A stretch of 64,000 nucleotides of DNA from a virus: IMG/VR virus record IMGVR_UViG_3300026445_000027, positions 64,001 to 128,000 of that record; one strand, 5' to 3'. A model generated the notes under the pieces. That model saw only the letters and a list, made by a program, of their open reading frames with translations. It made no database searches and was not told the origin of the DNA. Below, one piece after another: positions 44,391 through 57,030 of this stretch; position 1 is the stretch's first letter, and each line of letters starts with the position of its first letter. The translations under genes and the position numbers were made by a program.

Positions 44391-44729
44391 CTAGTAAGTT
44401 CCATCCGACCGGGCCGAACGCTTGTCCTCGAGCATACTCCAATAACGTTCTGGAGTTACCACAATAACTGCACCTAATTTACCGTTTATGAGTTTGAGGA
44501 ATTCCTCGATGTCCTCTTCTCTCTTAAAGTAAAGTTGGTGATCTTGATCACATTCGTAGTACTCCAAGTAAGTTTCCTTGGTTACCTCAAAACCGTATTC
44601 AAGCTTCTCTGCGGAGGGATCAAGAAAATATTCGTTGAGGGCGTCTTCATAATTGAAAGCGCCTTCAGCAGCGAACTCTAGTCCAGACCCCTTATGTTTG
44701 TAGTACGCCAGCGATGGATCAATGTTCAT
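44391..44729 (-). CDS. Accessory acidic protein
   Basis: ATG 44729 overlapping the polymerase stop region; AT-richer than neighbours. Confidence 0.6.
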   Translation of the reverse strand: MNIDPSLAYYKHKGSGLEFAAEGAFNYEDALNEYFLDPSAEKLEYGFEVTKETYLEYYECDQDHQLYFKREEDIEEFLKLINGKLGAVIVVTPERYWSMLEDKRSARSDGTY

Positions 44730-46824
44730 CGGACACCAGTCGTGTAGCTTTGCTGTTAAGGAAGTACAATCCGAGCGACTCAAGGATTGCGTAAATGGAT
44801 TTAAAGTTCTGCTGGATCAACAGACGCGAGTCCACGATAGGTAGTAGCTCTTTCGGTATGCCGCCCATCTCATCGATCATGTCTACTGGGATATAAACCG
44901 ATGTCAACTTAGGACGGGTTTCGATGTAAGCATGGAAGTTCTCTCCCCACACTTTGTCTTCTACCGAATCGAAATACTGTCGCATCTTAGACTTGTTGTG
45001 CAACGCCAAGTTGACCTTGTAAGCCCGGTATGGCAGTTCTGGTGCTTTGCCGTACTTAGGCGCAAACACACTCTCCCACAACTCGTGGTAGTAGTAGATG
45101 CTCGACTCTGGGTTAGAGTAAGCATTCTCAGCTTTGATACCGTTCTTAGTCAGCCAGGTGTAACCACCCTCGTCAATATCTTGGAACAGGGCACGTTCAA
45201 TGTCAGCGATCTCAGCCAACAGTTCAGCAGCATCCAACTGCTTCTTGTTGTAGATAGCATCGAGCACTTTACGCATAAGCGTGTTGGTGAACTCACGTAC
45301 CTTAAGTGCGATCTTAACCCCACGCAAGTGCACGCCTTTGAGCTCTAACTTAGGTTTGGGGTGCAAGATACCTTCCAGCATCAACTGCATTGCATAGTAG
45401 TGCTTGGACATGGAGGTCGTCACGTACGAACTGAACAAGTACTCGTTTTTCATGTTCAATCGGTACATGTACCGATTAGACACGTTCATGTTCTTACTGA
45501 GACGTGCGTGCTGGTCTACTGCGATGCAACGGATGAAATACGTCAGTGCGGCGTTGAAGCAGATACCACCCTGCTCGTCTTCTACGTAGTCGTCGATAAT
45601 CATGTCTACCGAGTAGATCATCGAGTCAGTGTCAGACGTCAGTACGTTCTCACGCACCAGCTCTTTCGCACTGAACACACCACTTGGTGGAATGTCTGCA
45701 CGGAAGAATGCGTTAATGAATGTACTCCACTTCTCTTCCAACGACAAGTGGTGGGTGTTGAGGAACGTCATCTGCTTGCTGTCGGGTTTCTTACCCAACT
45801 TGGTAATACAGAGGATCTCGTAGTCCGAGTTAGCCGGCTTGACACCAGTAGACGGATCGTAGTCCTCTGGCATCTCTGGCAGAGCACACCAATCGTTGAA
45901 GAACCGTTGCATCAGTTCCCGGTTGGTAGTGTACAGACCACGCAAGTCCATGGTGCACAGCAGGATGGTCAGCTCCAGTGGGCTCAGACCTTCCAAGAAC
46001 AACTGGATAGCACCCAAACGAGTCGGGTTCTTCCAGTAGTAACGAGCGCAACGACGAACCATGTCCATGACTTGGTCGACTGTCGCATAATTCATTGAGT
46101 ACTCGTTGATCACACGATGGATCAACTTACGGTCAGCAAACGCCAAAGTACTGAGGAACAGTTCCATTGTTGCGTCGAAGCTAACCAACAAACGGTTACC
46201 GGTAATCAGACGCTCGTTCAGCAAGTTAGCGGTCGAGGTTACAGTCCGGCAAGTACTGGTCAGAGTAGTGTGACCAGATTTGTTGTACAGCGGAGTACCA
46301 GACGAAGACATACCACCCGACTGGGCGTTGTTGAAAATCTTCAGTGCGTTCTGGATCTCGTCGAATGCTTTTGCTGCTTCTTGGTCGTTAACGCCAAGTG
46401 CTTCTTTTTTCTTACCCTTGTACAGACGACGGAATTCAATAAAGGTGTCTGTACCAATGGCGTTTACCGATTGTTCATCATCGGTGTGCTTGTACGCTAC
46501 AAAGGACGGGCTGAGGATCCAGTTATTATGTTCTACTGTCTGGAAGAACTCACTTGCTGGCATGACCGTCGGAACACGATCACCATACTTATTCTTTTTG
46601 AATACACCGAACTTGACTTCCTTGAAGCCGTTCTCGTTCGGGATAAAGACTTTCTCACATAACTCGAGTACTACGTTGTAATCGTACCCGTAAAGCACGC
46701 TAAGGTACATCGCAGCCTGAATGTGATACGACTTGATGATATCACGATTAGGCTTGTACTGCTCAGCCATGAAGGGGTTCTTCACTTCCTTGGCTGGTTT
46801 TAGGTTAGTTACTTGAGCAGTCAT
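44719..46824 (-). CDS. Family-B DNA polymerase palm/thumb subunit (gp50-like)
   Basis: Motif B KIFNNAQSG, motif C SDTDS, KHY, LKGV. Confidence 0.85.
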   Translation of the reverse strand: MTAQVTNLKPAKEVKNPFMAEQYKPNRDIIKSYHIQAAMYLSVLYGYDYNVVLELCEKVFIPNENGFKEVKFGVFKKNKYGDRVPTVMPASEFFQTVEHNNWILSPSFVAYKHTDDEQSVNAIGTDTFIEFRRLYKGKKKEALGVNDQEAAKAFDEIQNALKIFNNAQSGGMSSSGTPLYNKSGHTTLTSTCRTVTSTANLLNERLITGNRLLVSFDATMELFLSTLAFADRKLIHRVINEYSMNYATVDQVMDMVRRCARYYWKNPTRLGAIQLFLEGLSPLELTILLCTMDLRGLYTTNRELMQRFFNDWCALPEMPEDYDPSTGVKPANSDYEILCITKLGKKPDSKQMTFLNTHHLSLEEKWSTFINAFFRADIPPSGVFSAKELVRENVLTSDTDSMIYSVDMIIDDYVEDEQGGICFNAALTYFIRCIAVDQHARLSKNMNVSNRYMYRLNMKNEYLFSSYVTTSMSKHYYAMQLMLEGILHPKPKLELKGVHLRGVKIALKVREFTNTLMRKVLDAIYNKKQLDAAELLAEIADIERALFQDIDEGGYTWLTKNGIKAENAYSNPESSIYYYHELWESVFAPKYGKAPELPYRAYKVNLALHNKSKMRQYFDSVEDKVWGENFHAYIETRPKLTSVYIPVDMIDEMGGIPKELLPIVDSRLLIQQNFKSIYAILESLGLYFLNSKATRLVSDEH

Positions 46825-46921: not shown

Positions 46922-47335
46922 CTACTCGTTGGTAAACTTGTTGCTGGTGTAGTTGGCCCCCAGGCTGGTCATGAAGGTCTTCAATGGGGCTTCCCAGGAC
47001 TCTTGCCAGTTGGTGATGTTCACCACGTTGCGCATGGACTGCACGAACTGGAAGGTGGCATCCTTGATCCAAGGAATACCAATCACCTCAGGACGACCAT
47101 CGGCATTGGCCACTACGATGTAACCGTAAGCGGTTGGGTCGTCGATGTTGTTGACTTTGTTCTGGAAATAAGGGTAAAGCATGCGATGCTTCACATTCAA
47201 TTCCGGATCCAGTGAGCGAGCGACGTTGTAGGTTAACTCACCGTCTACCCGCACACCTTGTTTGCCATCACCGATTAAACCGTTGCGCTCGAACTGGAAA
47301 CTTACTACGTCTCCCTTTTTGGGATTGATTGCCAT
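46922..47335 (-). CDS. Conserved small beta-barrel protein (gp49-like)
   Basis: 137 aa, GGAGG RBS. Confidence 0.65.
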   Translation of the reverse strand: MAINPKKGDVVSFQFERNGLIGDGKQGVRVDGELTYNVARSLDPELNVKHRMLYPYFQNKVNNIDDPTAYGYIVVANADGRPEVIGIPWIKDATFQFVQSMRNVVNITNWQESWEAPLKTFMTSLGANYTSNKFTNE

Positions 47336-47655
47336 GGTGTCCTCCGTTGGACCACAATTAACACTAGTGGTATCATCAAAGGATGGCCATCGAAGGTTAC
47401 AACCCGTCCGGGGGTAGACGTGACTACGTAATCAACTACGCTTTCGTCTTCCAGGTCCTCAATCATAATGTCAATCAAACACTGGTCTGCCGCAGTGTCT
47501 GGGTCGTCGCAGGTCATCATTAATTCGACTTCCCGCGCCAGGTAGCTTTGCAGATTATCAAACTCAAAGAACGTTTGATCGTCCGCTACTTCTGGTAATG
47601 ACGCCAGGTAATTGAGCAGCGCATCGTAATCAATGTCTAGGATACGCTTGTACAT
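47305..47655 (-). CDS. Small acidic protein
   Basis: 116 aa, operonic. Confidence 0.6.
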   Translation of the reverse strand: MYKRILDIDYDALLNYLASLPEVADDQTFFEFDNLQSYLAREVELMMTCDDPDTAADQCLIDIMIEDLEDESVVDYVVTSTPGRVVTFDGHPLMIPLVLIVVQRRTPWQSIPKRET

Positions 47656-47660
47656 GAGAA

Positions 47661-47984
47661 CTATTCCAAGTAGTAGAAAGTAAACACCACCGTCTTGCCA
47701 TTAACGGTGAAGTTCTCCAAGTATACGCTGGTATGATCCGTTACTGCTGCCTGGATAGACTCCATGGTGCGGAAGAAGTCTGTTTGCAGGATTTGTTGGC
47801 ACTCAGGGATCGGGTGGCTAAAGCCCTGGGTATTAGTCGGGATCATGTTCATCAGGGTAATGTCTACACCCTGGATCGAGAACAGGTTCTTGTACGCACC
47901 GAGCATTTCGTGGACGTCGGTGTTAGGTGGCAGTTGCACCACGTAGGTAAAGACCTGCTTTTGTTTTGCTTGCTCAGTCATCAA
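47661..47984 (-). CDS. Small protein
   Basis: 107 aa, operonic. Confidence 0.6.
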   Translation of the reverse strand: MMTEQAKQKQVFTYVVQLPPNTDVHEMLGAYKNLFSIQGVDITLMNMIPTNTQGFSHPIPECQQILQTDFFRTMESIQAAVTDHTSVYLENFTVNGKTVVFTFYYLE

Positions 47985-48306
47985 AAAGCTCCAGATAAAT
48001 TACGTGATCTTTAATGCTGAAAGACGAAAGGGTTGCGTCTTTGATAGCACTATGTACCAGAATACCAATTTGTACCAAGTGCGGGATTACTTCCAGCAGT
48101 AGGAGCTGGAACACCGCTGGATCTAGTTTCAGCAACTCGATGGTATCTTTGGTCAGGTCTTCTTGTATGTCTGGCTCGTTTGCCAACCAGATCTGCACCA
48201 GGAAGTTTAACAGGGTGTCGATCTCGGCGACACCCAAACCATGGTTGGTGAAAATGTCTTTTACCATCCCCAGAGGAACGGTTACTACTTTAGTCTTGGG
48301 TTCCAA
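47974..48306 (-). CDS. Small protein
   Basis: 110 aa, TTG start with GGAGGAG RBS. Confidence 0.6.
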   Translation of the reverse strand: MEPKTKVVTVPLGMVKDIFTNHGLGVAEIDTLLNFLVQIWLANEPDIQEDLTKDTIELLKLDPAVFQLLLLEVIPHLVQIGILVHSAIKDATLSSFSIKDHVIYLELFDD

Positions 48307-48757
48307 AGCAAAACTCCTCCAATGGTGATAGCTCGGATGGTATTAAAAAATCTCGTTCATCTATTGCTACCAAGATGTTCATATTGGGCATTAGCTTATA
48401 GCCGCACTTATAATCCAGCACAGACTTAGGTGTTAGATCAATTACCTGTCGATAGATGTGTGCGGCACCATCCTGGATGATATCTTTAATGTCATCCTCT
48501 AACAGGTTCTTGCGACAGATAATCTGGTCGTAGTGCTGTTCGTCAAACCGCACCCCACCAGGGTAACCTTCAAATGCAGCTTCGATGCTTGCTTCCCACA
48601 AACCTTTGGCTAGATCAGGCCAGCGTTTAGGTGGTAGGTTACCCACGATAATTCTGGATGTTTCTTCGCTGATCTTTTCGTACAAACTCTGCGCGTCGAT
48701 TTGATGAAAGCGGAGGGATTGACTGAGCCCTAGCACCATCAGATTTATTGAACTCAT
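48290..48757 (-). CDS. Small protein
   Basis: 155 aa; overlaps the upstream ORF by about 100 nt, start uncertain. Confidence 0.55.
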   Translation of the reverse strand: MSSINLMVLGLSQSLRFHQIDAQSLYEKISEETSRIIVGNLPPKRWPDLAKGLWEASIEAAFEGYPGGVRFDEQHYDQIICRKNLLEDDIKDIIQDGAAHIYRQVIDLTPKSVLDYKCGYKLMPNMNILVAIDERDFLIPSELSPLEEFCFGTQD

Positions 48758-49196
48758 TGATATCGTCCATACTTGGTGTGTCAGTTACCACATCCATGAT
48801 ATCTTCTTCTTCCCGCACTGGAGGAGTGATGTTCCACCCTAGTCGCTCTGCGGTAGCTTCCAGATCCATCACGATAACGGCTGTAGTATATACCACGCCG
48901 ATTACCGAGTAATCCACTTTAACCACCAATCGTGGATCCCAGCCATTACCACGAATCATGCGCTGGATCATTGCTACATACGACGAGAACACTTTATCTG
49001 GTACGGACATACCATAAGTGTCAGCAAAGTCTTCGATATCTTCGGCGATTTTGTTTTTACGCTTACCGCTAGATTCGTTAATGTATTCCACTGCAGCCGT
49101 TACTAACGCTCTGGCAATCTCCAGTCTGACCATCAAGGTAGTGTCGGCTTCCAAGATGAAGTCATTGGCTAATGCCATTATGTCGATCTTAACCAC
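48639..49196 (-). CDS. Hypothetical protein
   Basis: 185 aa, GAGG RBS. Confidence 0.6.
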   Translation of the reverse strand: MVKIDIMALANDFILEADTTLMVRLEIARALVTAAVEYINESSGKRKNKIAEDIEDFADTYGMSVPDKVFSSYVAMIQRMIRGNGWDPRLVVKVDYSVIGVVYTTAVIVMDLEATAERLGWNITPPVREEEDIMDVVTDTPSMDDINEFNKSDGARAQSIPPLSSNRRAEFVRKDQRRNIQNYRG

Positions 49197-49208
49197 AGGG
49201 TACCTCGG

Positions 49209-49505
49209 TTAATATTCCAGTGTTATTAATAGAAAAGCGTTGGCTTTACCATAGGCGCTAATATTGACGTAAGCATCACGAGGTACACCCGCTATCTTTT
49301 CCAATATCCCTTCCCGTAGCCCCTCGAAGTCATGCCCATGCATGCGATGGTAAATACGTTGCTCGTTAAATTCAGTAAACCCTTCATCCATCAAAACGGA
49401 AATAACGTCTGTAACGTCTATTTTGCGTTCTAAGAGCTTTTTGCCGTCGCCGATAGGACGGCCAAGGGTAAACCGTTCAAGGTTAATAGAGAAGCTTCTA
49501 GACAC
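49209..49505 (-). CDS. Small protein
   Basis: 98 aa, GTG start. Confidence 0.6.
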   Translation of the reverse strand: MSRSFSINLERFTLGRPIGDGKKLLERKIDVTDVISVLMDEGFTEFNEQRIYHRMHGHDFEGLREGILEKIAGVPRDAYVNISAYGKANAFLLITLEY

Positions 49506-49573
49506 CTTTACGACCCCTCTCGTTAAACATAGTATCGCATATATATGGTCAACCAGTTAAAAACAACTATAAC

Positions 49574-49607
49574 CCTAAGGGTAGGAGCATTAGCTCCTAC
49601 CCTTAGG
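49574..49607. terminator. 15-bp hairpin after phuZ
   Basis: cctaagggtaggagc-atta-gctcctacccttagg. Confidence 0.75.
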
Positions 49608-49619
49608 TTACATCATAGC

Positions 49620-50615
49620 TTACAGCAAGACGCCGTTGGAATCAGCACCGACGGACATGTCTTTCTGTTGTACGTAGACGCCCTGGTTGGTGGACTTGAC
49701 CTTGGTCAGTTTTTCCAGTTGTTGCTCCAGGTCGGCTACGGATTCACCGTGGTCCAGCAGCATGTGCAGCTGGGTGGTGTCGGCTGGGGTTTGGATGCCC
49801 TTGCCGAAGATGCCGGTGGAACGGATCACAGTGCCGGAGAAAGCAGCAGTGATGTTCTCGGACTTGTCGAACAGGCTGACGGTAGCTACCGGGATTGGGC
49901 CCTTGTAGTTTTCCGGGTTGTCGTAGAAGCTGATGCGCGACAGTGCTGGTGGAACGCCGTAGTGCTTGGAGTAGTCCAGCACGTTGAGCAGGTCTTGGAA
50001 GTCTTGCTCTTCGTTGTCACCGTTGGCGAACAGCGAGAACAGCGAGATCTTCTGAACGACGTCGCGGTCGACTTGGCCGCGGGTCTTACCTGGCTCGTTG
50101 CGGAACTCCATGTAGTTGATCGGAGCGTTGAGCTGGTTCGGTTGGGTTTGAATCGCCATCGACTGCAGAGTCTTGATGGAGTTTTCCATTTCGACCTGGG
50201 AGGTGTGGTCGGTGATGATCGCCAGTACTGCCGAGTGGCCGTTCTGTTTCAGCCAGCGGATCACCAGGGTAGCCAGCAGGGCACCAGAACCACCAGCGCC
50301 GGAGCAGGCAACGATGTTGAACACGCCTGGGGTGTACTTGTTCATGGTGCGGTCAACGAACGGTACAGCCTCGGCGTAGTTGGTAGCTTTGACCTTACCG
50401 GAACCGTTGGCGAGCTTCTTCGGATCACCGCTCAGTGGGACGCGTTCCAGCGGGATGCCCAGTTCTTCTGGCAGGCGGTTGTTACCGGAGGCGTCGAGTG
50501 CCAGGTAAGTTGCCTTGGCCACCTTGTCCGAGTAGGTGCTGGCTTTCAACAGCTTAGCGATGTTGATACCGGCGCCGCCGCAGACGATGATGTTCAGCTC
50601 TGGTTTAGTCGACAT
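49620..50615 (-). CDS. phuZ: PhuZ phage tubulin
   Basis: CGGAGINI, GSGK, SGAGGSG tubulin signature, acidic/hydrophobic C-terminal tail. Confidence 0.9.
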   Translation of the reverse strand: MSTKPELNIIVCGGAGINIAKLLKASTYSDKVAKATYLALDASGNNRLPEELGIPLERVPLSGDPKKLANGSGKVKATNYAEAVPFVDRTMNKYTPGVFNIVACSGAGGSGALLATLVIRWLKQNGHSAVLAIITDHTSQVEMENSIKTLQSMAIQTQPNQLNAPINYMEFRNEPGKTRGQVDRDVVQKISLFSLFANGDNEEQDFQDLLNVLDYSKHYGVPPALSRISFYDNPENYKGPIPVATVSLFDKSENITAAFSGTVIRSTGIFGKGIQTPADTTQLHMLLDHGESVADLEQQLEKLTKVKSTNQGVYVQQKDMSVGADSNGVLL

Positions 50616-50690
50616 AAATTACTCTCTTTACCAAGTGGAAGTGTATTGCGAAATCATTTATGTAAAAGATCTGTAGATCCATACACGTAG

Positions 50691-50708
50691 GTAATATAGG
50701 CTTGTAAA
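50691..50708 (-). promoter_or_regulatory. Early promoter of phuZ
   Basis: TTTACAAGCCTATATTAC, with an exact TATATTAC core. Confidence 0.65.
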
Positions 50709-50899
50709 TTTATTACCCTACATAAAAAGGTTATCCAGTATAAATGCAAAAAAGAAAAGCATTACCTACCAGTACCTAAACCACATGGGCAAGGACTGGT
50801 AGGCTAAGCTTAACTACACTGGGATGCTATCAACTAACTAGGTCGAACCCTACAACGACCAGGTATGTGATTGAGCAATACAATATAAAGTGCAGTTAC

Positions 50900-51225
50900 A
50901 AAAAATAAAGTATAACCCCACCCAATACCCCTAGACCAGGCGACAGTGTCGGCTAGGATCAGGGCATTGAGCAGGGGGAGGTTTTCTTTGGTTGCCTCAA
51001 CAGCACAACCCAACCAGCGAATAACTAGGCAGACGATTACTGGTTGTTGCCTTAGGACCTCCTAACCTTTGGCAGGGGCAGGGGCTACAGCATGGGTCGA
51101 AGATACAAAGGAAGAGTGACGTACCAATTGAGAGGCACACCGGCCAGCAAACCTGACAACGGGTACATCACTCTGACTAGGCAAGCGAGGGCAAGCTTAG
51201 TCTACACGGCCGCTAGGTCCATGTT
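50900..51225 (-). ncRNA. Putative multi-hairpin RNA 3' of tRNA-Gln, ending in a terminator
   Basis: No credible ORF; 13-bp stem AGAGTGATGTACC/GGTACGTCACTCT and others; terminal hairpin plus TTTATTTTTT. Confidence 0.45.
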
Positions 51226-51302
51226 TGGAAGAGGTAGATGGATTCGAACCATCGCATGACAGGATCAAAACCTGTTGCCTTACCGGGCTTGGCTATACCT
51301 CT
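51226..51302 (-). tRNA. tRNA-Gln(UUG)
   Basis: AGAGGTA/TACCTCT acceptor, ACAGG-TT TTG AT-CCTGT anticodon arm, TTCGAAT T-loop, encoded CCA. Confidence 0.9.
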
Positions 51303-51307
51303 GTAAC

Positions 51308-51402
51308 TGGGGTGGTCTACGGGCTTTTACCGTACGTCGTGAGTAACAGGCCGGCCTCCAGACCTGTAACGGCTTTCTCAAAGTGGACCTTGGGAGAACA
51401 CC
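51308..51402 (-). ncRNA. tRNA-flanked structured RNA, copy 1
   Basis: GGTGTTC/GACCACC closing stem plus CCA; TACGG-TAAAAGC-CCGTA arm. Confidence 0.55.
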
Positions 51403-51409
51403 TTTGATT

Positions 51410-51485
51410 TGGCTCCACGTCCTGGATTCGAACCAGGGACCAACAGATTAACAGTCTGCTGCTCTACCGACTGAGCTAACGTGGA
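51410..51485 (-). tRNA. tRNA-Asn(GUU)
   Basis: Canonical 76-nt cloverleaf, CT GTT AA loop, CCA. Confidence 0.95.
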
Positions 51486-51497
51486 AGAAATATTGAC

Positions 51498-51609
51498 GGT
51501 CCATTCGGGCTTTTACCGCACTTACTCATGAGCTTGCGGCTCAAGGGGGCCCGACCGTCCGGGCGCCGAGTGCTTTCTTTACCTACCAGGGTTCCTTGAT
51601 CAATGGTCC
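51498..51609 (-). ncRNA. Structured RNA, copy 2 of the same motif
   Basis: CCATT/AATGG closing stem; AGAAAGC and CGGTAAAAGCCCG shared with copy 1. Confidence 0.5.
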
Positions 51610-51626
51610 TTTGTAGGTTAATATGT

Positions 51627-51758
51627 TGTTCGACCTGGTAAGGGGGAAGGGAGGCTCGTTTTATCCCCCGACTTGGACCCATGCACCGTATGGACTACTG
51701 GGCGGCTCCTTTTAGTGTAGCCCGGCTGTACCCTACCGTCTTTCCACCAGATCAAACA
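51627..51758 (-). ncRNA. Putative structured RNA closed by a 13-bp helix
   Basis: TGTTTGATCTGGT/ACCAGGTCGAACA, with G-U pairs on the minus strand only. Confidence 0.45.
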
Positions 51759-51774
51759 AACTCTTGAATAAAGT

Positions 51775-52063
51775 ATCCGTTCGCCACACCCGCGCTATTC
51801 GCATTCCGCAAGCGCGTCATGTACTTACATTCCCGTTGCCACGGATCACAGCAAAGCGCTCAGCGCGCTAGCACGGGAAAGAGTCCCCCTAGGACTTCTT
51901 GTGTGGGCTGCTTGCGCAATGCAAAGCCGCCCTGCGAGCCAACCTGACCGTCGGCTAAATGCCAGCAACAAGGTACCGTGACGAACCTTGTTGCCGGACT
52001 AGGTGTGTGTTCCTCAGCGCCCTTCGCCGCCCACAGCGCACCACCTTTGCTGAGGGACACACA
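51775..52063 (-). ncRNA. Putative hairpin-array RNA
   Basis: Consecutive long stems, e.g. TGTGTGTcCCTCAGC/GCTGAGGaACACACA and CCGGCAACAAGGT/ACCTTGTTGCTGG. Confidence 0.45.
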
Positions 52064-52065
52064 TT

Positions 52066-52205
52066 TGGTAGAGAGTACACGATTCGAACGTGTGGGCCCA
52101 TAAGTGTCGTTGGCCGACACCCTGAGCACATCCGGTTTCATGTAAGGCCGCCCTAGGGTACGCCCACAATCCTCCAGACTCCTTAAACCACTCGGACAAC
52201 TCTCT
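52066..52205 (-). ncRNA. 140-nt enlarged tRNA-like RNA
   Basis: Perfect acceptor stem, D-arm, T-arm and A-CCA end; about 85-nt central domain with no canonical anticodon arm. Confidence 0.75.
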
Positions 52206-52229
52206 GTTAACTTTGTATAACATAGGAAA

Positions 52230-52375
52230 TCGGGACGGATCCCAGGGTAGAGCCCTGGTCTTACGCCGTAAGTATACGACGCATTCTGGATCGCCCTCCG
52301 TCTTGAGGCTTTTCTTCCCTAAGTCTAGCCAACCCTGACGGCCGTTAGGCTAGAGAGTTAACCGCGACCCGGGTT
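52230..52375 (-). ncRNA. Putative structured RNA between tRNA-Leu and the tRNA mimic
   Basis: Stems GGTCGC/GCGATC, TCTAGCC/GGCTAGA, GCGTCGTA/TACGGCGT, CCAGGG/CCCTGG. Confidence 0.4.
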
Positions 52376-52385
52376 TATCCAAATA

Positions 52386-52471
52386 TGGTGCGAGAGACGG
52401 GCATCGAACCCGTATGGCCAGAAGCCGACAGATTTTAAGTCTGTTGTGTATACCAATTCCACCACACTCGC
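52386..52471 (-). tRNA. tRNA-Leu(UAA)
   Basis: 86 nt, long variable arm, CT TAA AA loop, A73, CCA; one U-U mismatch in the acceptor stem. Confidence 0.9.
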
Positions 52472-52884
52472 AGAACACACCGTTACATATCATAACCATG
52501 TGTAGTAAAAAGATAAGAGGAACTGCTCCAGATTGCGACATCCTTCACAATCCCTCTGTCACCTAGACCTCGGTAATAGTGTTAACCCTTTTACCGCCGT
52601 AAAGGCCCGCCTCATCAAACTCTCTGCTCACAACCATGCTGCCGGCCAGATCGAAATCCCAGGGCGGTCAGCACAGAAGAAGCCCAGTAGGAAAGTTTGG
52701 GTGACTTAGTGGGTTTGACGTTCCACTCATAGGTTCTGCTCAGAAAAGCTTGTCATCGCGATTCGTTGCATCATACAACCACCGGCTCCACCTTAAGGTT
52801 CCGGCTGATCTCCTCAATGGGAGAATTCGGTTTAGGCGTTAACAATCACACCTGTTGTATATAATGGATTATTGCAGTAACAAA

Positions 52885-54075
52885 TTAACCAATCGGACTA
52901 CCAGTGGCAGACTGCATGCCGTTTACTGGGGCCTCACCAGCTCTTATGATCAAATCACCTTTGGACTCAACGATGTATTTATTGGCTTCTTTGAAAGTGT
53001 TGCCCAGGTAGTAGAGACCGGTGCCGTTATAGCCGATGCCGTAGTACTGCATTTCACACTGATCGCTAGACTCAGCAGAGATCATTGCTGTAAGGTGTTC
53101 TTGTGTGATAGCTGAACTAACGTTTTCAACATAGACGGGGTTGGCGTGCTCACTGAACTCAGCAATGAAATTATCATCTACCAAAACAACCAACGTCGAC
53201 AGGCCGTTGATAAGCCACTTGCGATGCGACAGGATGATTACTTTACCTGGGTAGCGATTACCAGTTTTGGTGATCTCTTCACGAATAAGGTTTTTGGTAG
53301 TTTTGCTGAAATTGCCGAAAACTGTGTTATAGTACTTGAGCTGATCCGGGTCATCCAGTACAAAAGGGCGTTTGACGCTAGGGATATCTTCTTCTGGTCC
53401 TGGGTCCCTTGCAGGCTTAGCATTAGCCTTAACATAGTTAGCTTCCAACATCGCCAGTTTGCTTTCTGGTATCAGCCCACCTTCGCGAAGCTCTTTGATC
53501 ATTTCCTTTGTGGCGTAAACGTTGTATTGCTGAATACGTTTGGCGGTTAACGAGTAAGCGTCGAAGAAGCTACCGTCCAGGTACGCACCAACGTTACCAT
53601 GGAAATTAGCCAGGATGGTACCGGAGTCGTACTCTTCTTCTGACTCAGCCACGCCACCTGGGGCCAGGCCTGCTTTAGCCAATGCTTCGCGCAGGTTAGG
53701 GTTAGCACTGAACATAATCTCACGTGCCATTGCCGCGATGCGAACTGGATCAGCGCCGTTCAGCAATGCGGGCAGATCAAAATCTACCGCACCTGGGTCG
53801 TCAGTGAGGGACTCTTTGTAGAGACCACCCATACCAGGGTACTCGAGGTCTTTCTCCGTGATCTTGGAGATAGTGTCCCCGGATGCGTTCATGATGTAAA
53901 CGTTGCCAGTGATCGGATAAGACCGATTCTTACCTGGCAGTGCATGTTGGATTACCAGCCCGTGGTTTCCATTTGGTGGGGTACCTAAGTTGACTTTGAT
54001 GTCAACCGGTTCTTCTACAACCAGCATGCGGAAACTCTTGTTGTCGCGGTCCATCATTTTGATAATGAGGTTCAT
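52885..54075 (-). CDS. Paralogue-array protein D (shared N-terminal domain)
   Basis: 396 aa; YPITGNVYIMNASGDTISKI. Confidence 0.7.
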   Translation of the reverse strand: MNLIIKMMDRDNKSFRMLVVEEPVDIKVNLGTPPNGNHGLVIQHALPGKNRSYPITGNVYIMNASGDTISKITEKDLEYPGMGGLYKESLTDDPGAVDFDLPALLNGADPVRIAAMAREIMFSANPNLREALAKAGLAPGGVAESEEEYDSGTILANFHGNVGAYLDGSFFDAYSLTAKRIQQYNVYATKEMIKELREGGLIPESKLAMLEANYVKANAKPARDPGPEEDIPSVKRPFVLDDPDQLKYYNTVFGNFSKTTKNLIREEITKTGNRYPGKVIILSHRKWLINGLSTLVVLVDDNFIAEFSEHANPVYVENVSSAITQEHLTAMISAESSDQCEMQYYGIGYNGTGLYYLGNTFKEANKYIVESKGDLIIRAGEAPVNGMQSATGSPIG

Positions 54076-54184
54076 GTAAACTACTCGTATTAGTTAGTGG
54101 TTTGTCTTACTGGTATTGCGTACGTGCTATGTTGCCTAAGGTCAGAGCCGCCCCTGACCTTAGTATTGTTTTGCTCGGTGTAAA

Positions 54185-55027
54185 TTAACTAAAGGTAACC
54201 GGTCGGATATCAAAAACTTCATTATCCAAATTGACGGTAAAGGCTTGTTTGTTAAGAAGGCTGTCGACTCTCCAGCCTTTGTCTGGAATATACTCAAGCC
54301 CATGGGACTCTTTTTCTTTGGCCGAAAGTGTATCGACTGTACGGCACCCTAGTTCAGTAACTACGATATGCGGCTGAGATGCACACTCCATGATACCTAA
54401 CGTTTTGTCAAAATGAGGATTTACATACAAAATCCATGGTCCATTAGGTGGCAAATCTATCATCCACTGGAACATTTGGGTAAATGGATCAACATGATCT
54501 GCGCTAATCAATTCGTTCAACTGATCAAGGCTGTTGCTAGGGAGGAATTGCAATTTACCAAGACCCAAGTAAAGAGTCGGTGAAGCTGCACGTAAATCTT
54601 TAGCACTATTCCAAACGGTAGCTGGATCACTCCCCTGGACACTCCCACCTGGATTCAATGGAGGGAACTGCTTAGGTATCTCACTACGCTTATTCAACTC
54701 TTCCCAGTCAATGGGGCGGTCGCCACTCATTGCTTCCCGGATAGGTTGTAATACTGCTTCGGTCTGTTCTTCAATACGCACCGGAGCCATAAGCTTTTCA
54801 TAGCTTACTTCACTTAACACCAACCCGTCAGGATTCATGATGGTGACGTCACCAGTTACCGGAATGACTTCAGAACGGAAGTCACCAAAACCCTCGACTA
54901 CCACCAATGGGGTATTAGACTTGGTCGCAGCAAATACAGTCACACGACCAGCATGTAGCACAGGGATCAAATGGAACCCGACTTTATCCGAGTGCATTAC
55001 CTTGATAATAGTTACTGGTTTAATCAT
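54185..55027 (-). CDS. Paralogue-array protein C
   Basis: 280 aa; IPVTGDVTIMNPDGLVLSEV. Confidence 0.7.
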   Translation of the reverse strand: MIKPVTIIKVMHSDKVGFHLIPVLHAGRVTVFAATKSNTPLVVVEGFGDFRSEVIPVTGDVTIMNPDGLVLSEVSYEKLMAPVRIEEQTEAVLQPIREAMSGDRPIDWEELNKRSEIPKQFPPLNPGGSVQGSDPATVWNSAKDLRAASPTLYLGLGKLQFLPSNSLDQLNELISADHVDPFTQMFQWMIDLPPNGPWILYVNPHFDKTLGIMECASQPHIVVTELGCRTVDTLSAKEKESHGLEYIPDKGWRVDSLLNKQAFTVNLDNEVFDIRPVTFS

Positions 55028-55641
55028 TACGCGGGCTCCCCTATCAATTTCTTAGCTTCTTCTTCAGACAAGTTAAATGTAAAACCGAAATTAGTTGCTA
55101 CTGGTTCGCGAGTCTTTCTGTTCACCCCGATAAATGAGTAAGCTAACTCCGGAGTGGATGGGTCGATAAAGATTTCGTGGTCATGGCACGATGCGTAGAA
55201 AGCCTGATCGGATCCTAGGAGCACTATTGGACTTTCTTCACCCATGTGCGGCTTGGGGATAAATACCGAAATAGGGTTTCCGCAGTAGAGGGTGGCGCGG
55301 GTTCTTACTTTCCAGATGCCATTTGTAGAGACAGTCAGTCGTTTTTCCAACAGCTCCATCCAGAACTCTTTGCTTCCTGGTGCGGTGGGAGTGGGAGGGT
55401 ACACCAGATCGGAAAGTTTCACTAACTGGATCAAGGCACCTGTGTGAGACTTGATCTCTACGTCACCACGCAGTTGGTAAACGGCGGTATTTTCCTCCAA
55501 CACCCCGTCTATTTCAACAACCCCTTTCTGGATAGTCAAGGTAGCATGACCTCGGCCAAACTTCATGACCTCTTGACTACCCACTTGGAGGACAGTACCT
55601 ACTGAACCATAGCTAGTAAACAACGTTACGATAAGACTCAT
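55027..55641 (-). CDS. Paralogue-array protein B
   Basis: 204 aa; YQLRGDVEIKSHTGALIQLV. Confidence 0.7.
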   Translation of the reverse strand: MSLIVTLFTSYGSVGTVLQVGSQEVMKFGRGHATLTIQKGVVEIDGVLEENTAVYQLRGDVEIKSHTGALIQLVKLSDLVYPPTPTAPGSKEFWMELLEKRLTVSTNGIWKVRTRATLYCGNPISVFIPKPHMGEESPIVLLGSDQAFYASCHDHEIFIDPSTPELAYSFIGVNRKTREPVATNFGFTFNLSEEEAKKLIGEPA

Positions 55642-55892
55642 GACGCGCCCTCTACACTATAGGCCGTGACAGTTTGGATTACTTCACCGTTTGCATTACA
55701 GATCTCCACTTCCCCATCAAAGCCGTAGGCGGTAATGCTGTTACTAGATCCATTAACTGAAGGGATACGTACATGTGGATCGGAATTGGTGTACCGACCG
55801 AATTCAATACGCTCGCCAACTTTAACCGTCAGTACGTTTTTCACAACGCCTTTGCTGTTCTTAACGATTACCAACATTGCCAACTGACTCAT
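55638..55892 (-). CDS. Paralogue-array protein A (domain only, 84 aa)
   Basis: Start reassigned to ATG 55892 (GGAG RBS); YGFDGEVEICNANGEVIQTV. Confidence 0.7.
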   Translation of the reverse strand: MSQLAMLVIVKNSKGVVKNVLTVKVGERIEFGRYTNSDPHVRIPSVNGSSNSITAYGFDGEVEICNANGEVIQTVTAYSVEGAS

Positions 55893-55924
55893 ACTTACTC
55901 CAATTATTAAAATGCGTGTATAAA

Positions 55925-55951
55925 CCCTACCTAGCTTATAGCTAGGTAGGG
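55925..55951. terminator. 12-bp hairpin after the protease gene
   Basis: ccctacctagct-tat-agctaggtaggg. Confidence 0.6.
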
Positions 55952-55957
55952 GTACCA

Positions 55958-56608
55958 TTAAACGGCTTCTACTACGATCGGGTCTTCGACTTCTGGCTTC
56001 GGATGGGTGGAAGCTTCACCAGGAGTAGTCTCCGGCTTAACCGCTTCATCCTTGGCGTCCTTCGGATCTTTGATCACCAGGTGGGCAGGCCGTACCGATT
56101 TCACTTCTGGTACTGGCGGGAACACGAATACGTCCACGTCACCACCGGACATCACATCCAGCTTACAGGCAGTTTTAACCGCCTTAGCCGCATTCTGCCC
56201 CACGCACATAGCAGCCAGTGCAAAACGGCTACCGCTACCGCTGGAGTATGGAACGTTTACCGGCAGCAGGAACTGCTCTTCACCACGCTTCTCTTTGTTG
56301 GCGTAGATGCTCCAGGCCAGTACCTCGTGGCGCTCAGTAATGAGGATCGCCTCGAAGTCCAGTTCCTCGTCGTGCGTTACCCGTGTACGGTAGTCGATAC
56401 CCTTACGCAGGTACTCCTTGATGTACTCGATGGCATGTGCCTGGCCACACACGCCGAATGCGATGATGCGTACGCCAGCTGCTTCCCAGTACTCGGTAGC
56501 TGCGTCTGGCTTGTGGATCTTCTTGAAGTTACCTGGCATGGCCATCCAGCCTTTAGTAGCCTGACCATCACTTGCCATCATTCCGTCGCTAACTGCGATA
56601 GTAGTCAT
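55958..56608 (-). CDS. HslV/proteasome-beta-like Ntn protease
   Basis: N-terminal (M)TTIA nucleophile, ASDGQAT, KKI, GSGSRFA, D..SGG. Confidence 0.8.
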   Translation of the reverse strand: MTTIAVSDGMMASDGQATKGWMAMPGNFKKIHKPDAATEYWEAAGVRIIAFGVCGQAHAIEYIKEYLRKGIDYRTRVTHDEELDFEAILITERHEVLAWSIYANKEKRGEEQFLLPVNVPYSSGSGSRFALAAMCVGQNAAKAVKTACKLDVMSGGDVDVFVFPPVPEVKSVRPAHLVIKDPKDAKDEAVKPETTPGEASTHPKPEVEDPIVVEAV

Positions 56609-56716
56609 TTACTATAAACCCCTTAGGTACCAAATAATGATCGTCTGCCTAACTAACCAGTAGTAAGCAATAACATAACACTCTAGCAAATAAATAATCC
56701 GGTGTTACTCATACTG

Positions 56717-56733
56717 GTAATGTAGGTTTAAGT
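56717..56733 (-). promoter_or_regulatory. Putative early promoter of the protease gene
   Basis: ACTTAAACCTACATTAC. Confidence 0.5.
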
Positions 56734-56779
56734 ATTTCTTAGGTAATGCAAATATAACCCTTACCCTACCCTCCCTAAG

Positions 56780-57030
56780 GAAGATAGAAGTATAATAATT
56801 AATATATATTTTTCTAATTTTTGACACATTCTATGTCTATTTAAATTTAGTAATATAGTAAAGGGGGCTGCGCCCCCTTTACTAGTCATCTATGCTAAAG
56901 CATAAAGGCTATGAGTCTCGTCATCTACTAACGTAGATTCCTCGGCCTAAGCATCCTCCCCGGTAAGGCTATTCACTCCGTTCCGTTCGCCGAAGGCTCA
57001 CTTCACTACGTTCATAACCTTACCACCCCT
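56780..57030. other. AT-rich tract plus hairpin cluster, candidate origin or ssDNA signal
   Basis: Very AT-rich 56790-56860 next to several hairpins with cGNAg loops. Confidence 0.35.

What the first reader, a model, noticed from the sequence alone, without database searches (positions are those of the whole stretch)
51308..51609. Two copies of an unrecognised T-loop RNA motif flanking tRNA-Asn
51308-51402 and 51498-51609 share, in order, a closing stem, CAAGG, AGAAAGC (51372-78 and 51572-78), a variable helical domain, an identical 13-mer CGGTAAAAGCCCG hairpin (51320-32 and 51506-18) and GACC. Copy 1 has tRNA geometry: a 7-bp acceptor-like stem with one mismatch, a 5-bp arm with a 7-nt loop, and CCA. 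It fills the Asn-Gln spacer to within 7 and 5 nt. A conserved core with variable inserts points to a real RNA family.
Basis: seen in the sequence. Interest (0 to 1): 0.75.

Follow-up and report, generated by a model that had tools for sequence, protein, structure and literature searches.

The report
T-arm-like hairpin in phage tRNA leaders
Two spacer RNAs beside the asparagine tRNA gene of an uncultured giant phage share a short hairpin the size of a tRNA arm. That hairpin recurs just upstream of tRNA genes in many unrelated large phages, so it marks an uncatalogued RNA element of unknown function, not two copies of a tRNA mimic.

Summary
The window comes from a phiKZ-like (PhuZ, divergent PolB) jumbo phage. 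The finding lies on the minus strand of its 2.2-kb tRNA/ncRNA island.

The exact 13-mer and the other listed words are at the stated coordinates. In a pairwise test only a 16-mer (GTRCGGTAAAAGCCCG) exceeds chance.

Copy 2 is a strongly constrained RNA: 95% identical in two other phage lineages, against 79-82% for the adjacent tRNA-Asn. It always sits directly 5' of tRNA-Asn. Copy 1 evolves at the background rate (84%) and is absent, together with tRNA-Gln, from a near-identical relative. In the other lineage its acceptor-like stem is lost, while a competing 5' hairpin shows two compensatory pairs. The tRNA-geometry reading is therefore not supported.

The family idea survives in a different form. 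The hairpin R-CGG-URAAANN-CCG-NA occurs in at least 15 independent IMG/VR contigs, inside tRNA clusters and always on the tRNA strand (P about 1e-8 to 1e-11). It usually ends 12-26 nt 5' of the next tRNA and is often followed at once by the 3' strand of a closing helix. A second box, AAAGAAARCAC, recurs in a subfamily.

There is no Rfam match and no expression data. The function is inferred: a tRNA-top-half-like leader module released by tRNA processing. This scan had already noted the same island in a related genome (e1-5380636).

The parts
51486..51625 (-). Copy 2: the whole conserved leader block, from the end of the upstream element to the 5' end of tRNA-Asn
   Evidence: 94-99% identical in L015, L119/L177/L178 and L179/L155. 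The core is 94.6-95.6% identical, against 79-82% for tRNA-Asn.
51570..51580 (-).
   Evidence: Invariant in three lineages. AAAGAAAACAC/G recurs 34-62 nt 5' of the hairpin in L272, L280 and L264.
51495..51559 (-). 3' module of copy 2: helix GACGGUC/GACCGUC enclosing a 33-nt joiner and the hairpin
   Evidence: RNAalifold and the best adjacent-helix search. The lineage C changes give G-U and one extra U-A pair. There is no double compensatory change.
51504..51519 (-). Hairpin motif GCGG-UAAAAGC-CCGAA (copy 2)
   Evidence: Exact 13-mer. The same 16-mer lies in tRNA clusters of L032, L270, L272, L280, L264 and L138.
51410..51485 (-). tRNA-Asn(GUU), 18 nt 3' of the copy 2 hairpin motif
   Evidence: ARAGORN and Rfam, 72 bits.
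51303..51409 (-). Copy 1: the whole tRNA-Asn to tRNA-Gln spacer
   Evidence: 84% identical in L179/L155. Absent, with tRNA-Gln, from L015, and absent from lineage B.
51371..51402 (-). Copy 1 hairpin A (GGU.UUCUC...GAGAA.GCC). Its 3' strand holds AGAAAGC and it competes with the proposed acceptor stem.
   Evidence: Same fold in the independent MFE of W and L179. The outer pairs U-G/G-C change to G-C/U-A.
51343..51370 (-). Copy 1 hairpin B (GUUACAGG...CCUGUUAC), the variable helical domain
   Evidence: MFE in both lineages. The apical changes are compatible with pairing.
51318..51333 (-). Hairpin motif ACGG-UAAAAGC-CCGUA (copy 1)
   Evidence: Exact 13-mer. The 14-mer ACGGUAAAAGCCCG is the longest invariant block of copy 1 between W and L179.
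51308..51316 (-). Conserved tail ACCACCCCA of copy 1 (holds the CCA)
   Evidence: Identical in W and L179. Its pairing partner is unresolved.
51226..51302 (-). tRNA-Gln(UUG), 15 nt 3' of the copy 1 hairpin motif
   Evidence: ARAGORN and Rfam, 63.6 bits. In L179 a D-armless tRNA-like RNA stands here instead.

Best explanation
Both stretches are non-coding leader/spacer modules of a polycistronic tRNA/ncRNA operon in a nucleus-forming (phiKZ-like) jumbo phage. They are two different RNAs, not two copies of one.

Copy 2, about 125-140 nt, is an almost invariant RNA fixed to the 5' side of tRNA-Asn. Copy 1, about 100 nt, is a faster-evolving and dispensable module made of two hairpins.

What they share is a small, widespread phage motif. 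It is a hairpin R-CGG-[U-R-A-A-A-N-N]-CCG-N-A with the dimensions of a tRNA T arm, and in a subfamily an upstream AAAGAAARC box. Across large phages this hairpin sits in tRNA clusters on the tRNA strand and ends 12-26 nt before the next tRNA. In compact members it is separated from a 6-8 bp closing helix by a 16-19 nt joiner on the 5' side and by nothing on the 3' side. Hairpin and closing helix can therefore stack into a rod of about 12 bp capped by a T-like loop, which resembles the top half of a tRNA without an anticodon arm.

Proposed mechanism (inferred):
- The module is co-transcribed with the tRNAs.
- RNase P cleavage at the downstream tRNA, together with 3' maturation of the upstream tRNA, releases it.
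- The tRNA-top-half-like stack gives the released RNA a nuclease-resistant 3' end and/or a handle for a factor that recognises tRNA shape.

Shown: the sequences, their conservation, their strand and position bias, and the absence of any known family. Inferred: transcription, processing, coaxial stacking, the T-loop fold and any trans function.
For: Context:
- PhuZ lies downstream and a divergent PolB is present.
- There are three tRNAs on the minus strand and no other Rfam family.

Copy 2:
- Its core is 94.6-95.6% identical between lineages, against 79-82% for tRNA-Asn and 71-83% for the rest of the island.
- It is always directly 5' of tRNA-Asn, whatever lies upstream: element X, tRNA-Trp or tRNA-Ser.
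- The open frame across it shows about 3 synonymous to 7 non-synonymous changes and a frameshift in one lineage, so it is not coding (read).

Copy 1:
- It is kept in lineage C, with compensatory changes in hairpin A.

Motif family:
- GCGGTAAAAGYCCGAA: 8 of 19 unique IMG/VR hits lie within 400 nt of a same-strand tRNA.
- GCGGTRAAANNCCGAAG: 10 of 90 unique hits do so, and none lies near only opposite-strand tRNAs.
- The background is 1.07%, giving binomial P of 1e-11 and 5e-8.
- The distance to the next tRNA is 12-26 nt in 11 of 12 cases with a tRNA less than 30 nt away.
- The closing helix starts at offset 0 with a joiner of 16-18 nt in L272, L283, L049 and L332. L019b, which has no called tRNA nearby, has the same layout.
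- Adjacent helices are longer in tRNA-cluster members than in other hits (Mann-Whitney P = 0.006).
- The two-box pattern gives 5 independent tRNA-cluster loci against 1 coding hit.
Against: - There is no evidence of transcription or of discrete ends. The 'RNA' runs that hold the stretch carry the whole 243-kb genome as single contigs, so they do not show expression.
- Copy 2 has no double compensatory change for any fold, because it hardly varies.
- The closing helices of family members were chosen as the best helix, so their pairing is partly by construction. The test on the compact layout is only modestly significant (Fisher P = 0.04).
- Copy 1 has no conserved closing helix.
- Family membership of copy 1 rests on the exact 13-mer and its context. 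The profile score of 12.5 bits (E = 0.12 for the window) is at noise level.
- MFE z-scores are about 0.
- The GCGG and CCGAA arms were fixed in the search patterns, so the searches could not reveal their variation.
Confidence: 0.5

Rival explanations
1. One reading: both are paralogous tRNA mimics. Each has an acceptor-like stem, a T arm and a CCA, and could be recognised by CCA-adding enzyme or aminoacyl-tRNA synthetases, or could cleave itself.
For: In the window, copy 1 can form GGUGUUCU/AGACCACC (one mismatch), UACGG-loop-CCGUA and a CCA. Forcing this fold costs only 2.3 kcal/mol. The family layout, with the hairpin directly followed by a closing strand, resembles a tRNA minihelix.
Against: In L179 the stem shrinks to GUG/CAC and the arm to 3 bp, while the mutually exclusive hairpin A has two compensatory pairs. 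Neither copy 2 nor the eight other members whose 3' flank I read has CCA. ARAGORN and the Rfam tRNA model give nothing at E up to 10. Loop positions 55-56 are R-A instead of the U-C that tRNA uses to bind the D loop.
Confidence: 0.1
2. A trans-acting decoy or sponge. The released tRNA-top-half-like modules titrate a host or phage factor that binds tRNA elbows or acceptor/T stacks. Candidates are a tRNA-directed defence nuclease, RNase P, or a modification or repair enzyme.
For: Almost every nucleotide of copy 2 is invariant, although the neighbouring tRNA is free to change its helices by compensation. That suggests sequence-specific contacts rather than shape alone. The motif is spread over unrelated large phages rich in tRNAs. 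Non-decoding tRNA look-alikes sit in the same island.
Against: No partner has been identified. Three of the four GGA motifs of copy 2 are lost in lineage C, so a CsrA/RsmA sponge is unlikely. The constant position right before a tRNA points to a role in cis.
Confidence: 0.2
3. A DNA-level element: the motif marks cassette boundaries for recombination that shuffles [leader + tRNA] units between phages.
For: The island is modular. The tRNA content differs between close lineages, and W and L015 differ by a clean 184-nt [copy 1 + tRNA-Gln] indel. The two 13-mers are direct repeats 186 nt apart.
Against: The indel junctions lie at CCAAA at the tRNA 3' ends, not at the motif. No deletion between the two 13-mers was seen. 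Strict strand bias and hairpin-forming symmetry fit an RNA better.
Confidence: 0.07
4. Decayed tRNA genes or neutral spacers, with the shared 13-16-mer left over from a partial duplication.
For: Copy 1 evolves at about the background rate (84% against 77-83%) and is dispensable in L015. Pairwise similarity outside the 16-mer is at chance level.
Against: Copy 2 evolves four to five times more slowly than its tRNA. The motif recurs in unrelated contigs with strong strand and position bias.
Confidence: 0.05
5. A new self-cleaving ribozyme that trims tRNA precursors, analogous to the HDV-like 'theta' ribozymes next to phage tRNAs (my own knowledge).
For: High primary-sequence conservation, and a position adjacent to tRNA ends. 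The 3' end C-GAA-UGGACC of copy 2 superficially resembles the J4/2-P2 region of HDV ribozymes (by eye).
Against: No P1.1 or L3 equivalent could be drawn. There is no Rfam ribozyme hit at E up to 10. Compact family members of about 47 nt are too simple.
Confidence: 0.05

Closest known systems
Phage T4 RNAC and RNAD (species 1 and 2 stable RNAs)
   Same: Small non-tRNA RNAs encoded inside a phage tRNA region and co-transcribed with tRNAs. Their function is still unknown (PMC3014915, PMC9697503).
   Different: I did not compare them with the RNAC/RNAD sequences. The elements here are defined by a specific hairpin placed 12-26 nt 5' of a tRNA and occur in many unrelated large phages. RNase P processing and a CCA end are documented for T4 (my own knowledge) but untested here.
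tRNA acceptor/T-arm minihelix (the 'top half' of tRNA)
   Same: A 5-bp arm with a 7-nt loop closed by G-C, with U at loop position 1 and A at position 5. The 3' strand of a 6-8 bp helix follows immediately, giving a stack of about 12 bp.
   Different: Loop positions 2-3 are R-A, not U-C. The fourth stem pair is usually G.A. There is no encoded CCA (except in copy 1), no D arm and no anticodon arm. The Rfam tRNA model does not match.
Element X of this island and of cultured jumbo phages (D6, Psa21, HPP-Temi, pEa_SNUABM_9)
   Same: It lies in tRNA clusters and is closed by a long helix. Its 3' hairpin has a loop that starts UAAAAC and is followed directly by the closing strand.
   Different: The X covariance model does not score copy 1 or copy 2, even with filters off. 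X has a 16-nt loop and 15 covarying pairs.
ROOL and GOLLD ornate RNAs
   Same: Phage and prophage RNAs of unknown function that are often found next to tRNA islands (bioRxiv 10.1101/2024.12.08.627333).
   Different: Those are 500-800 nt and are in Rfam. There is no match here, and these modules are 47-140 nt.
tRNA-punctuated release of non-tRNA RNAs (for example MALAT1/mascRNA, or spacer-derived sRNAs of bacterial tRNA operons; my own knowledge)
   Same: A non-tRNA RNA whose ends would be set by tRNA-processing enzymes acting on flanking tRNAs or tRNA-like shapes.
   Different: Processing has not been shown here.

Membership tests
tRNA (Rfam RF00005) | Cloverleaf detectable by ARAGORN or the Rfam tRNA model | tested here: not met
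   Only Leu, Asn and Gln are found. Nothing is found on either copy at E up to 10.
tRNA-like structure with an acceptor end | Conserved acceptor-like stem ending in NCCA | tested here: not met
   The stem of copy 1 is lost in L179, and the competing hairpin has two compensatory pairs. Copy 2 and the eight other members whose 3' flank I read lack CCA.
T-loop motif | Loop with U at position 1 and A at position 5, purine at position 4, closed by G-C | tested here: met
   The loops seen are UAAAAGY, UGAAAGU, UGAAACU, UAAAAAU, UGAAAUC and UAAAACG, all closed by G-C. This holds at sequence level only.
T-loop motif | U1-A5 reverse-Hoogsteen pair and an intercalated base in three dimensions | not testable with these tools
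   No RNA 3D prediction or probing was available.
T4 RNAC/RNAD-type stable RNAs | Encoded within a phage tRNA cluster on the tRNA strand | tested here: met
T4 RNAC/RNAD-type stable RNAs | Accumulates as a discrete stable RNA after tRNA-type processing | not testable with these tools
   The runs are contigs of the whole genome and give no ends.
One family comprising copy 1 and copy 2 | A profile of one detects the other | tested here: inconclusive
   R2 (copy 2 only) gives copy 1 no score at E up to 10. R3 (7 family members, copy 1 left out) makes copy 1 the best non-self hit in the window, at 12.5 bits and E = 0.12. Chance hits of 12-18 bits occur in other phage genomes.
Hairpin motif family of phage tRNA clusters (defined here) | R-CGG-URAAANN-CCG-NA on the tRNA strand inside a tRNA cluster | tested here: met
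   Both copies meet it. The enrichment has P of 5e-8 to 1e-11.
Element X family (model R1) | Match to the covariance model | tested here: not met
Known self-cleaving ribozymes, T-box, ROOL/GOLLD, tmRNA, Y RNA-like | Rfam covariance model match | tested here: not met

The most novel reading that the evidence does not exclude
The hairpin plus closing helix is a dedicated mimic of the tRNA top half, or elbow. Many large phages plant it immediately upstream of their own tRNAs, and it acts as a handle or decoy for a protein that recognises tRNA shape. Examples would be recruiting RNase P or a repair enzyme to phage pre-tRNAs, or soaking up a host nuclease or toxin that targets tRNA. Copy 2 would be an elaborated, sequence-locked version specialised for tRNA-Asn.
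Probability: 0.15. Interest if true: 0.8.

Novelty: new variant of a known kind. Interest (0 to 1): 0.55.

Why it matters
Phage tRNA clusters have been known since T4 to carry extra small RNAs whose function has never been explained.

This work extracts from one such island a short, searchable signature: the hairpin R-CGG-URAAANN-CCG-NA, with an optional AAAGAAARC box. The signature links at least 15 independent large-phage contigs and has a fixed position relative to the next tRNA.

That turns a vague 'structured spacer' into a defined element. It can be modelled, searched for exhaustively, mutated, and tested for RNase P processing or protein binding.

It also shows that one such element, copy 2, is conserved more tightly than the tRNA it precedes, which argues for a function beyond spacing.

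Tried and rejected
- **Expression.** The look-up of sequencing runs listed 16 'metatranscriptome' runs holding the stretch. Read laying showed that they carry the entire 192-243 kb phage genome as single contigs at depth 130-200, so they say nothing about transcription or RNA ends.
- **BLAST.** The spacers matched nothing among 50,697 GenBank phages except element X.
- **13-mer+NA scan of IMG/VR.** It returned more than 114 hits, mostly chance. The 18-19 nt matches in L023 and L040 lie in coding DNA.
- **Genome-contig scan.** It gave 32 hits, none related to copy 2.
- **Coding.** The one open frame through copy 2 runs into tRNA-Asn, has no conserved start, shows dN/dS of about 1 and is frameshifted in lineage B. 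I rejected it.
- **CsrA/RsmA sponge (GGA motifs).** Three of the four motifs are lost in lineage C. Rejected.
- **HDV-like or hammerhead/twister ribozyme (by eye).** The defining parts are missing and there is no Rfam hit. Rejected.
- **Resemblance to 16S and 23S rRNA.** By eye I saw likenesses to the 16S 790 region and to the 23S GTPase-centre sequence AAAGAAAGCGUAAUAGC, both recalled from memory. By rough estimate, shared words of 9-10 nt are what chance gives, and the Rfam rRNA models gave nothing. Not pursued.
- **Homology of copies 1 and 2 to element X.** Model R1 gives no score.
- **R3 hits in cultured jumbo phages.** They score 11.6-17.7 bits. The best one lies in a CDS of FishSpeaker, so it is noise.
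- **L262, L282/L361, L285 and L383-385.** These look like coding DNA and are chance hits.

Full report
**Setting.** The window is part of an IMG/VR virus record. The ORF at 44719-46824 (minus strand) is a divergent family B DNA polymerase (PF20286). The gene just downstream of the island (49620-50615, minus) is PhuZ tubulin, 41% identical to that of Shewanella phage FishSpeaker. The record is therefore a phiKZ-like, nucleus-forming jumbo phage. Contigs in public runs put the genome at about 243 kb. All genes here, and the three tRNAs that ARAGORN and Rfam find, lie on the minus strand: Leu 52471-52386, Asn 51485-51410 and Gln 51302-51226. The finding must therefore be read on the minus strand. 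Rfam 15 reports nothing else between 50000 and 54000, even at E up to 10.

**Observation.** The 13-mer CGGTAAAAGCCCG occurs exactly twice in the window, at the stated places. A local alignment of the two spacers recovers only GT[A/G]CGGTAAAAGCCCG, with a score reached by 2 of 1000 dinucleotide shuffles. The 5' parts share nothing beyond AGAAAGC, whose score is reached by 420 of 1000 shuffles. MFE z-scores are about 0. As a pair, then, the two copies share one significant 16-mer.

**Relatives.** Three searches found three lineages of this phage: a pattern scan, a search with the PhuZ gene and one metagenome scan.
- Lineage A is the window and L015.
- Lineage B is L119, L177 and L178.
- Lineage C is L179 and L155.

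Copy 2 is present in all three and always directly precedes tRNA-Asn. Its upstream neighbour varies: element X in A, tRNA-Trp in B and tRNA-Ser in C. Its 112-nt core is 94.6-95.6% identical between lineages. The adjacent tRNA-Asn is only 79-82% identical, with fully compensated stem changes, and the rest of the island is 71-83% identical. The one open frame across copy 2 runs into the tRNA, has no conserved start, shows about 3 synonymous to 7 non-synonymous changes and is frameshifted in B. It is not coding.

Copy 1 is found only in W and lineage C, at 84% identity. L015, otherwise nearly identical to the window, lacks copy 1 and tRNA-Gln. The 184-nt indel is bounded by CCAAA at the two tRNA 3' ends. 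In L179, copy 1 is followed by a D-armless tRNA-like RNA instead of tRNA-Gln.

**Structure of copy 1.** Independent MFE folds of both sequences give instead the same 5' hairpin A. Its outer pairs change from U-G and G-C to G-C and U-A, which is two double compensatory changes. Both folds also give a second hairpin B with compatible changes. Hairpin A and the acceptor-like stem use the same 5' bases, so the tRNA geometry is not supported. The tail ACCACCCCA is conserved as sequence, but I found no conserved partner for it.

**Structure of copy 2.** So few positions vary that no fold can be proven. RNAalifold prefers a long-range helix GACGGUC(GGGC)/(GCCC...)GACCGUC, on which 98.6% of cells pair. 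The C-to-U changes of lineages B and C then become G-U pairs, and the G-to-U change of lineage C adds a U-A pair to the helix. That structure was derived from these same sequences, so this is a leaning, not a proof. The local hairpin GCCCGG/UCGGGC competes for the same bases. Mutually exclusive pairings of this kind would help explain why even helices do not drift.

**Are the two one family?** A covariance model of copy 2 (R2) finds copy 2 in G000 and G001. It finds nothing in phages D6, Psa21 or pEa_SNUABM_9, and it gives copy 1 no score even with filters off. A model of the neighbouring element X (R1) scores neither copy.

**The motif is much wider than this phage.**
- A scan of IMG/VR for GCGGTAAAAGYCCGAA gave 19 unique sequences. 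Eight of them lie inside tRNA clusters on the tRNA strand: L015, L121, L032 (a 517-kb contig), L270, L272, L280, L264 and L138.
- The looser pattern GCGGTRAAANNCCGAAG gave 90 unique hits. Ten lie in tRNA clusters on the tRNA strand and none near only opposite-strand tRNAs. New members are L283, L289/L359, L292, L309, L316 and L332, with the loops UGAAAGU, UGAAACU, UAAAAAU, UGAAAUC and UAAAACG.
- Only 1.07% of strand positions lie within 400 nt of a same-strand tRNA. The binomial probabilities are therefore 1e-11 and 5e-8.
- L049, L068 and L069, from the first scan, are further members.
- Where a tRNA follows within 30 nt, the motif ends 12-26 nt before it in 11 of 12 cases. The following tRNAs are Asn (four times), Gln, two Pro, Tyr, Gly, His and a CUA-anticodon tRNA. 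The twelfth case, L069 before tRNA-Arg, ends 3 nt before the tRNA.
- No cultured phage that I could search carries the motif.

**Shared layout.** In compact members the hairpin is followed with no gap by the 3' strand of a 6-8 bp helix, and the 5' strand of that helix lies 16-18 nt upstream of the hairpin. The helices are GGAUAU/GUAUCC, UUGAAGC/GCUUCAA, ACGUGG/CCACGU, GGUGGUCU/GGACUGCC and, in L019b, GACCGGC/GUCGGUC. In copy 2 the corresponding helix is GACGGUC/GACCGUC, with a 33-nt joiner. Adjacent helices are longer in tRNA-cluster members than in the other hits (P = 0.006). The strict compact layout is enriched at P = 0.04. Because the helices were selected as the best available, the regular spacing is the informative part.

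Stem pair 4 is usually G.A. Where the 3' base differs it becomes A-U, A-U, G-U or G-C, with one A.C exception. This suggests that the helix continues through that position.

The 7-10 nt left between the closing helix and the next tRNA equals the usual tRNA-to-tRNA spacing in these clusters.

**The AGAAAGC box.** It is not significant in the pairwise comparison, but it recurs at family level. L272 and L280 were both fetched through the hairpin alone, and both carry AAAGAAAACAC. L264 carries AAAGAAAACAG and copy 2 carries AAAGAAAGCAC, in each case 34-62 nt 5' of the hairpin. A two-box pattern returned five independent tRNA-cluster loci and one coding sequence. A family model built without copy 1 (R3) makes copy 1 the best non-self hit in the window and aligns both boxes, at 12.5 bits and E = 0.12. 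Scores of 12-18 bits also arise by chance in other jumbo-phage genomes, one of them inside a CDS. Copy 1 is therefore a member by its exact 13-mer and its context, not by profile score.

**Interpretation.** Four things are shown:
- Two distinct conserved spacer RNAs.
- One of them under unusually strong sequence constraint.
- A shared hairpin that belongs to a widespread motif tied to the tRNA strand and to tRNA clusters, with a fixed position 5' of tRNAs.
- No membership of any Rfam family.

The following is inferred. The modules are co-transcribed with the tRNAs and are freed by RNase P at the downstream tRNA and by 3' maturation of the upstream one. The tRNA-top-half-like stack stabilises the 3' end or serves as a handle for a factor that recognises tRNA shape. 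A trans role as a decoy is the main rival.

The closest precedent is T4 RNAC/RNAD, small RNAs from the T4 tRNA region whose roles remain unknown (PMC3014915, PMC9697503). ROOL and GOLLD are also found near phage tRNA islands (bioRxiv 10.1101/2024.12.08.627333), but they are unrelated in size and sequence. Earlier notes of this scan describe the same kind of island, including one on a related genome (e1-5380636). What is added here is the specific motif and its distribution.

**Verdict.** This is a real, uncatalogued RNA motif family of phage tRNA clusters, not a pair of tRNA mimics. Its function is unknown and no expression data are available.

Noticed in passing
window 51627-51758 (minus): Element X is an RNA of about 135 nt closed by a 14-bp helix. 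It is conserved at about 80% in the cultured jumbo phages D6, Psa21, HPP-Temi and pEa_SNUABM_9, always inside tRNA clusters and unannotated or miscalled as a small CDS. RNAalifold gives 39 pairs, 15 with compensatory changes, and there is no Rfam match. Because the hosts are cultured, it can be tested experimentally.
   Followed up: partly
window 52066-52205 (minus); L119:4563-4700; L179:1034-1172: A 140-nt tRNA look-alike with perfect acceptor, D and T arms but no normal anticodon arm is conserved in all three lineages. The lineage B copy lacks the CCA.
   Followed up: no
L179:1884-1965: A D-armless tRNA-like RNA takes the place of tRNA-Gln after copy 1. It has a 7-bp acceptor stem, a T arm, a long variable hairpin, a CCA and an abnormal 4-6 nt 'anticodon' loop.
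   Followed up: no
window 51226-51409 versus L015:4680-4690: There is a clean presence/absence polymorphism of [copy 1 + tRNA-Gln] between near-identical phages. It is bounded by CCAAA at the 3' ends of two tRNAs. The tRNA content of the island differs in every lineage, while the non-tRNA modules stay.
   Followed up: partly
window 47000-57000: Sixteen runs labelled metatranscriptomic RNA-Seq hold the stretch. In the three that I laid, this phage's whole genome (192-243 kb) assembles as a single contig at depth 130-200. That points to DNA in the libraries or to mislabelling.
   Followed up: yes
L019:1412-1582 (minus): Two tandem copies of the hairpin motif lie 75 nt apart with different loops (UGAAAUU and UAAAAGC), in a non-coding leader with no canonical tRNA called nearby.
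   Followed up: no
window 50900-51225 (minus): The multi-hairpin RNA downstream of tRNA-Gln is conserved at 71-80% in lineages B and C. It ends in a terminator-like hairpin and a U tract at about 50918-50943, which probably marks the end of the operon.
   Followed up: no
window 52701-52888 (minus): The 190-nt stretch upstream of the island, between the 396-aa gene and tRNA-Leu, is 80-83% conserved in both other lineages. It may hold the operon's promoter or leader. No sigma-70-like promoter was found on the minus strand.
   Followed up: no
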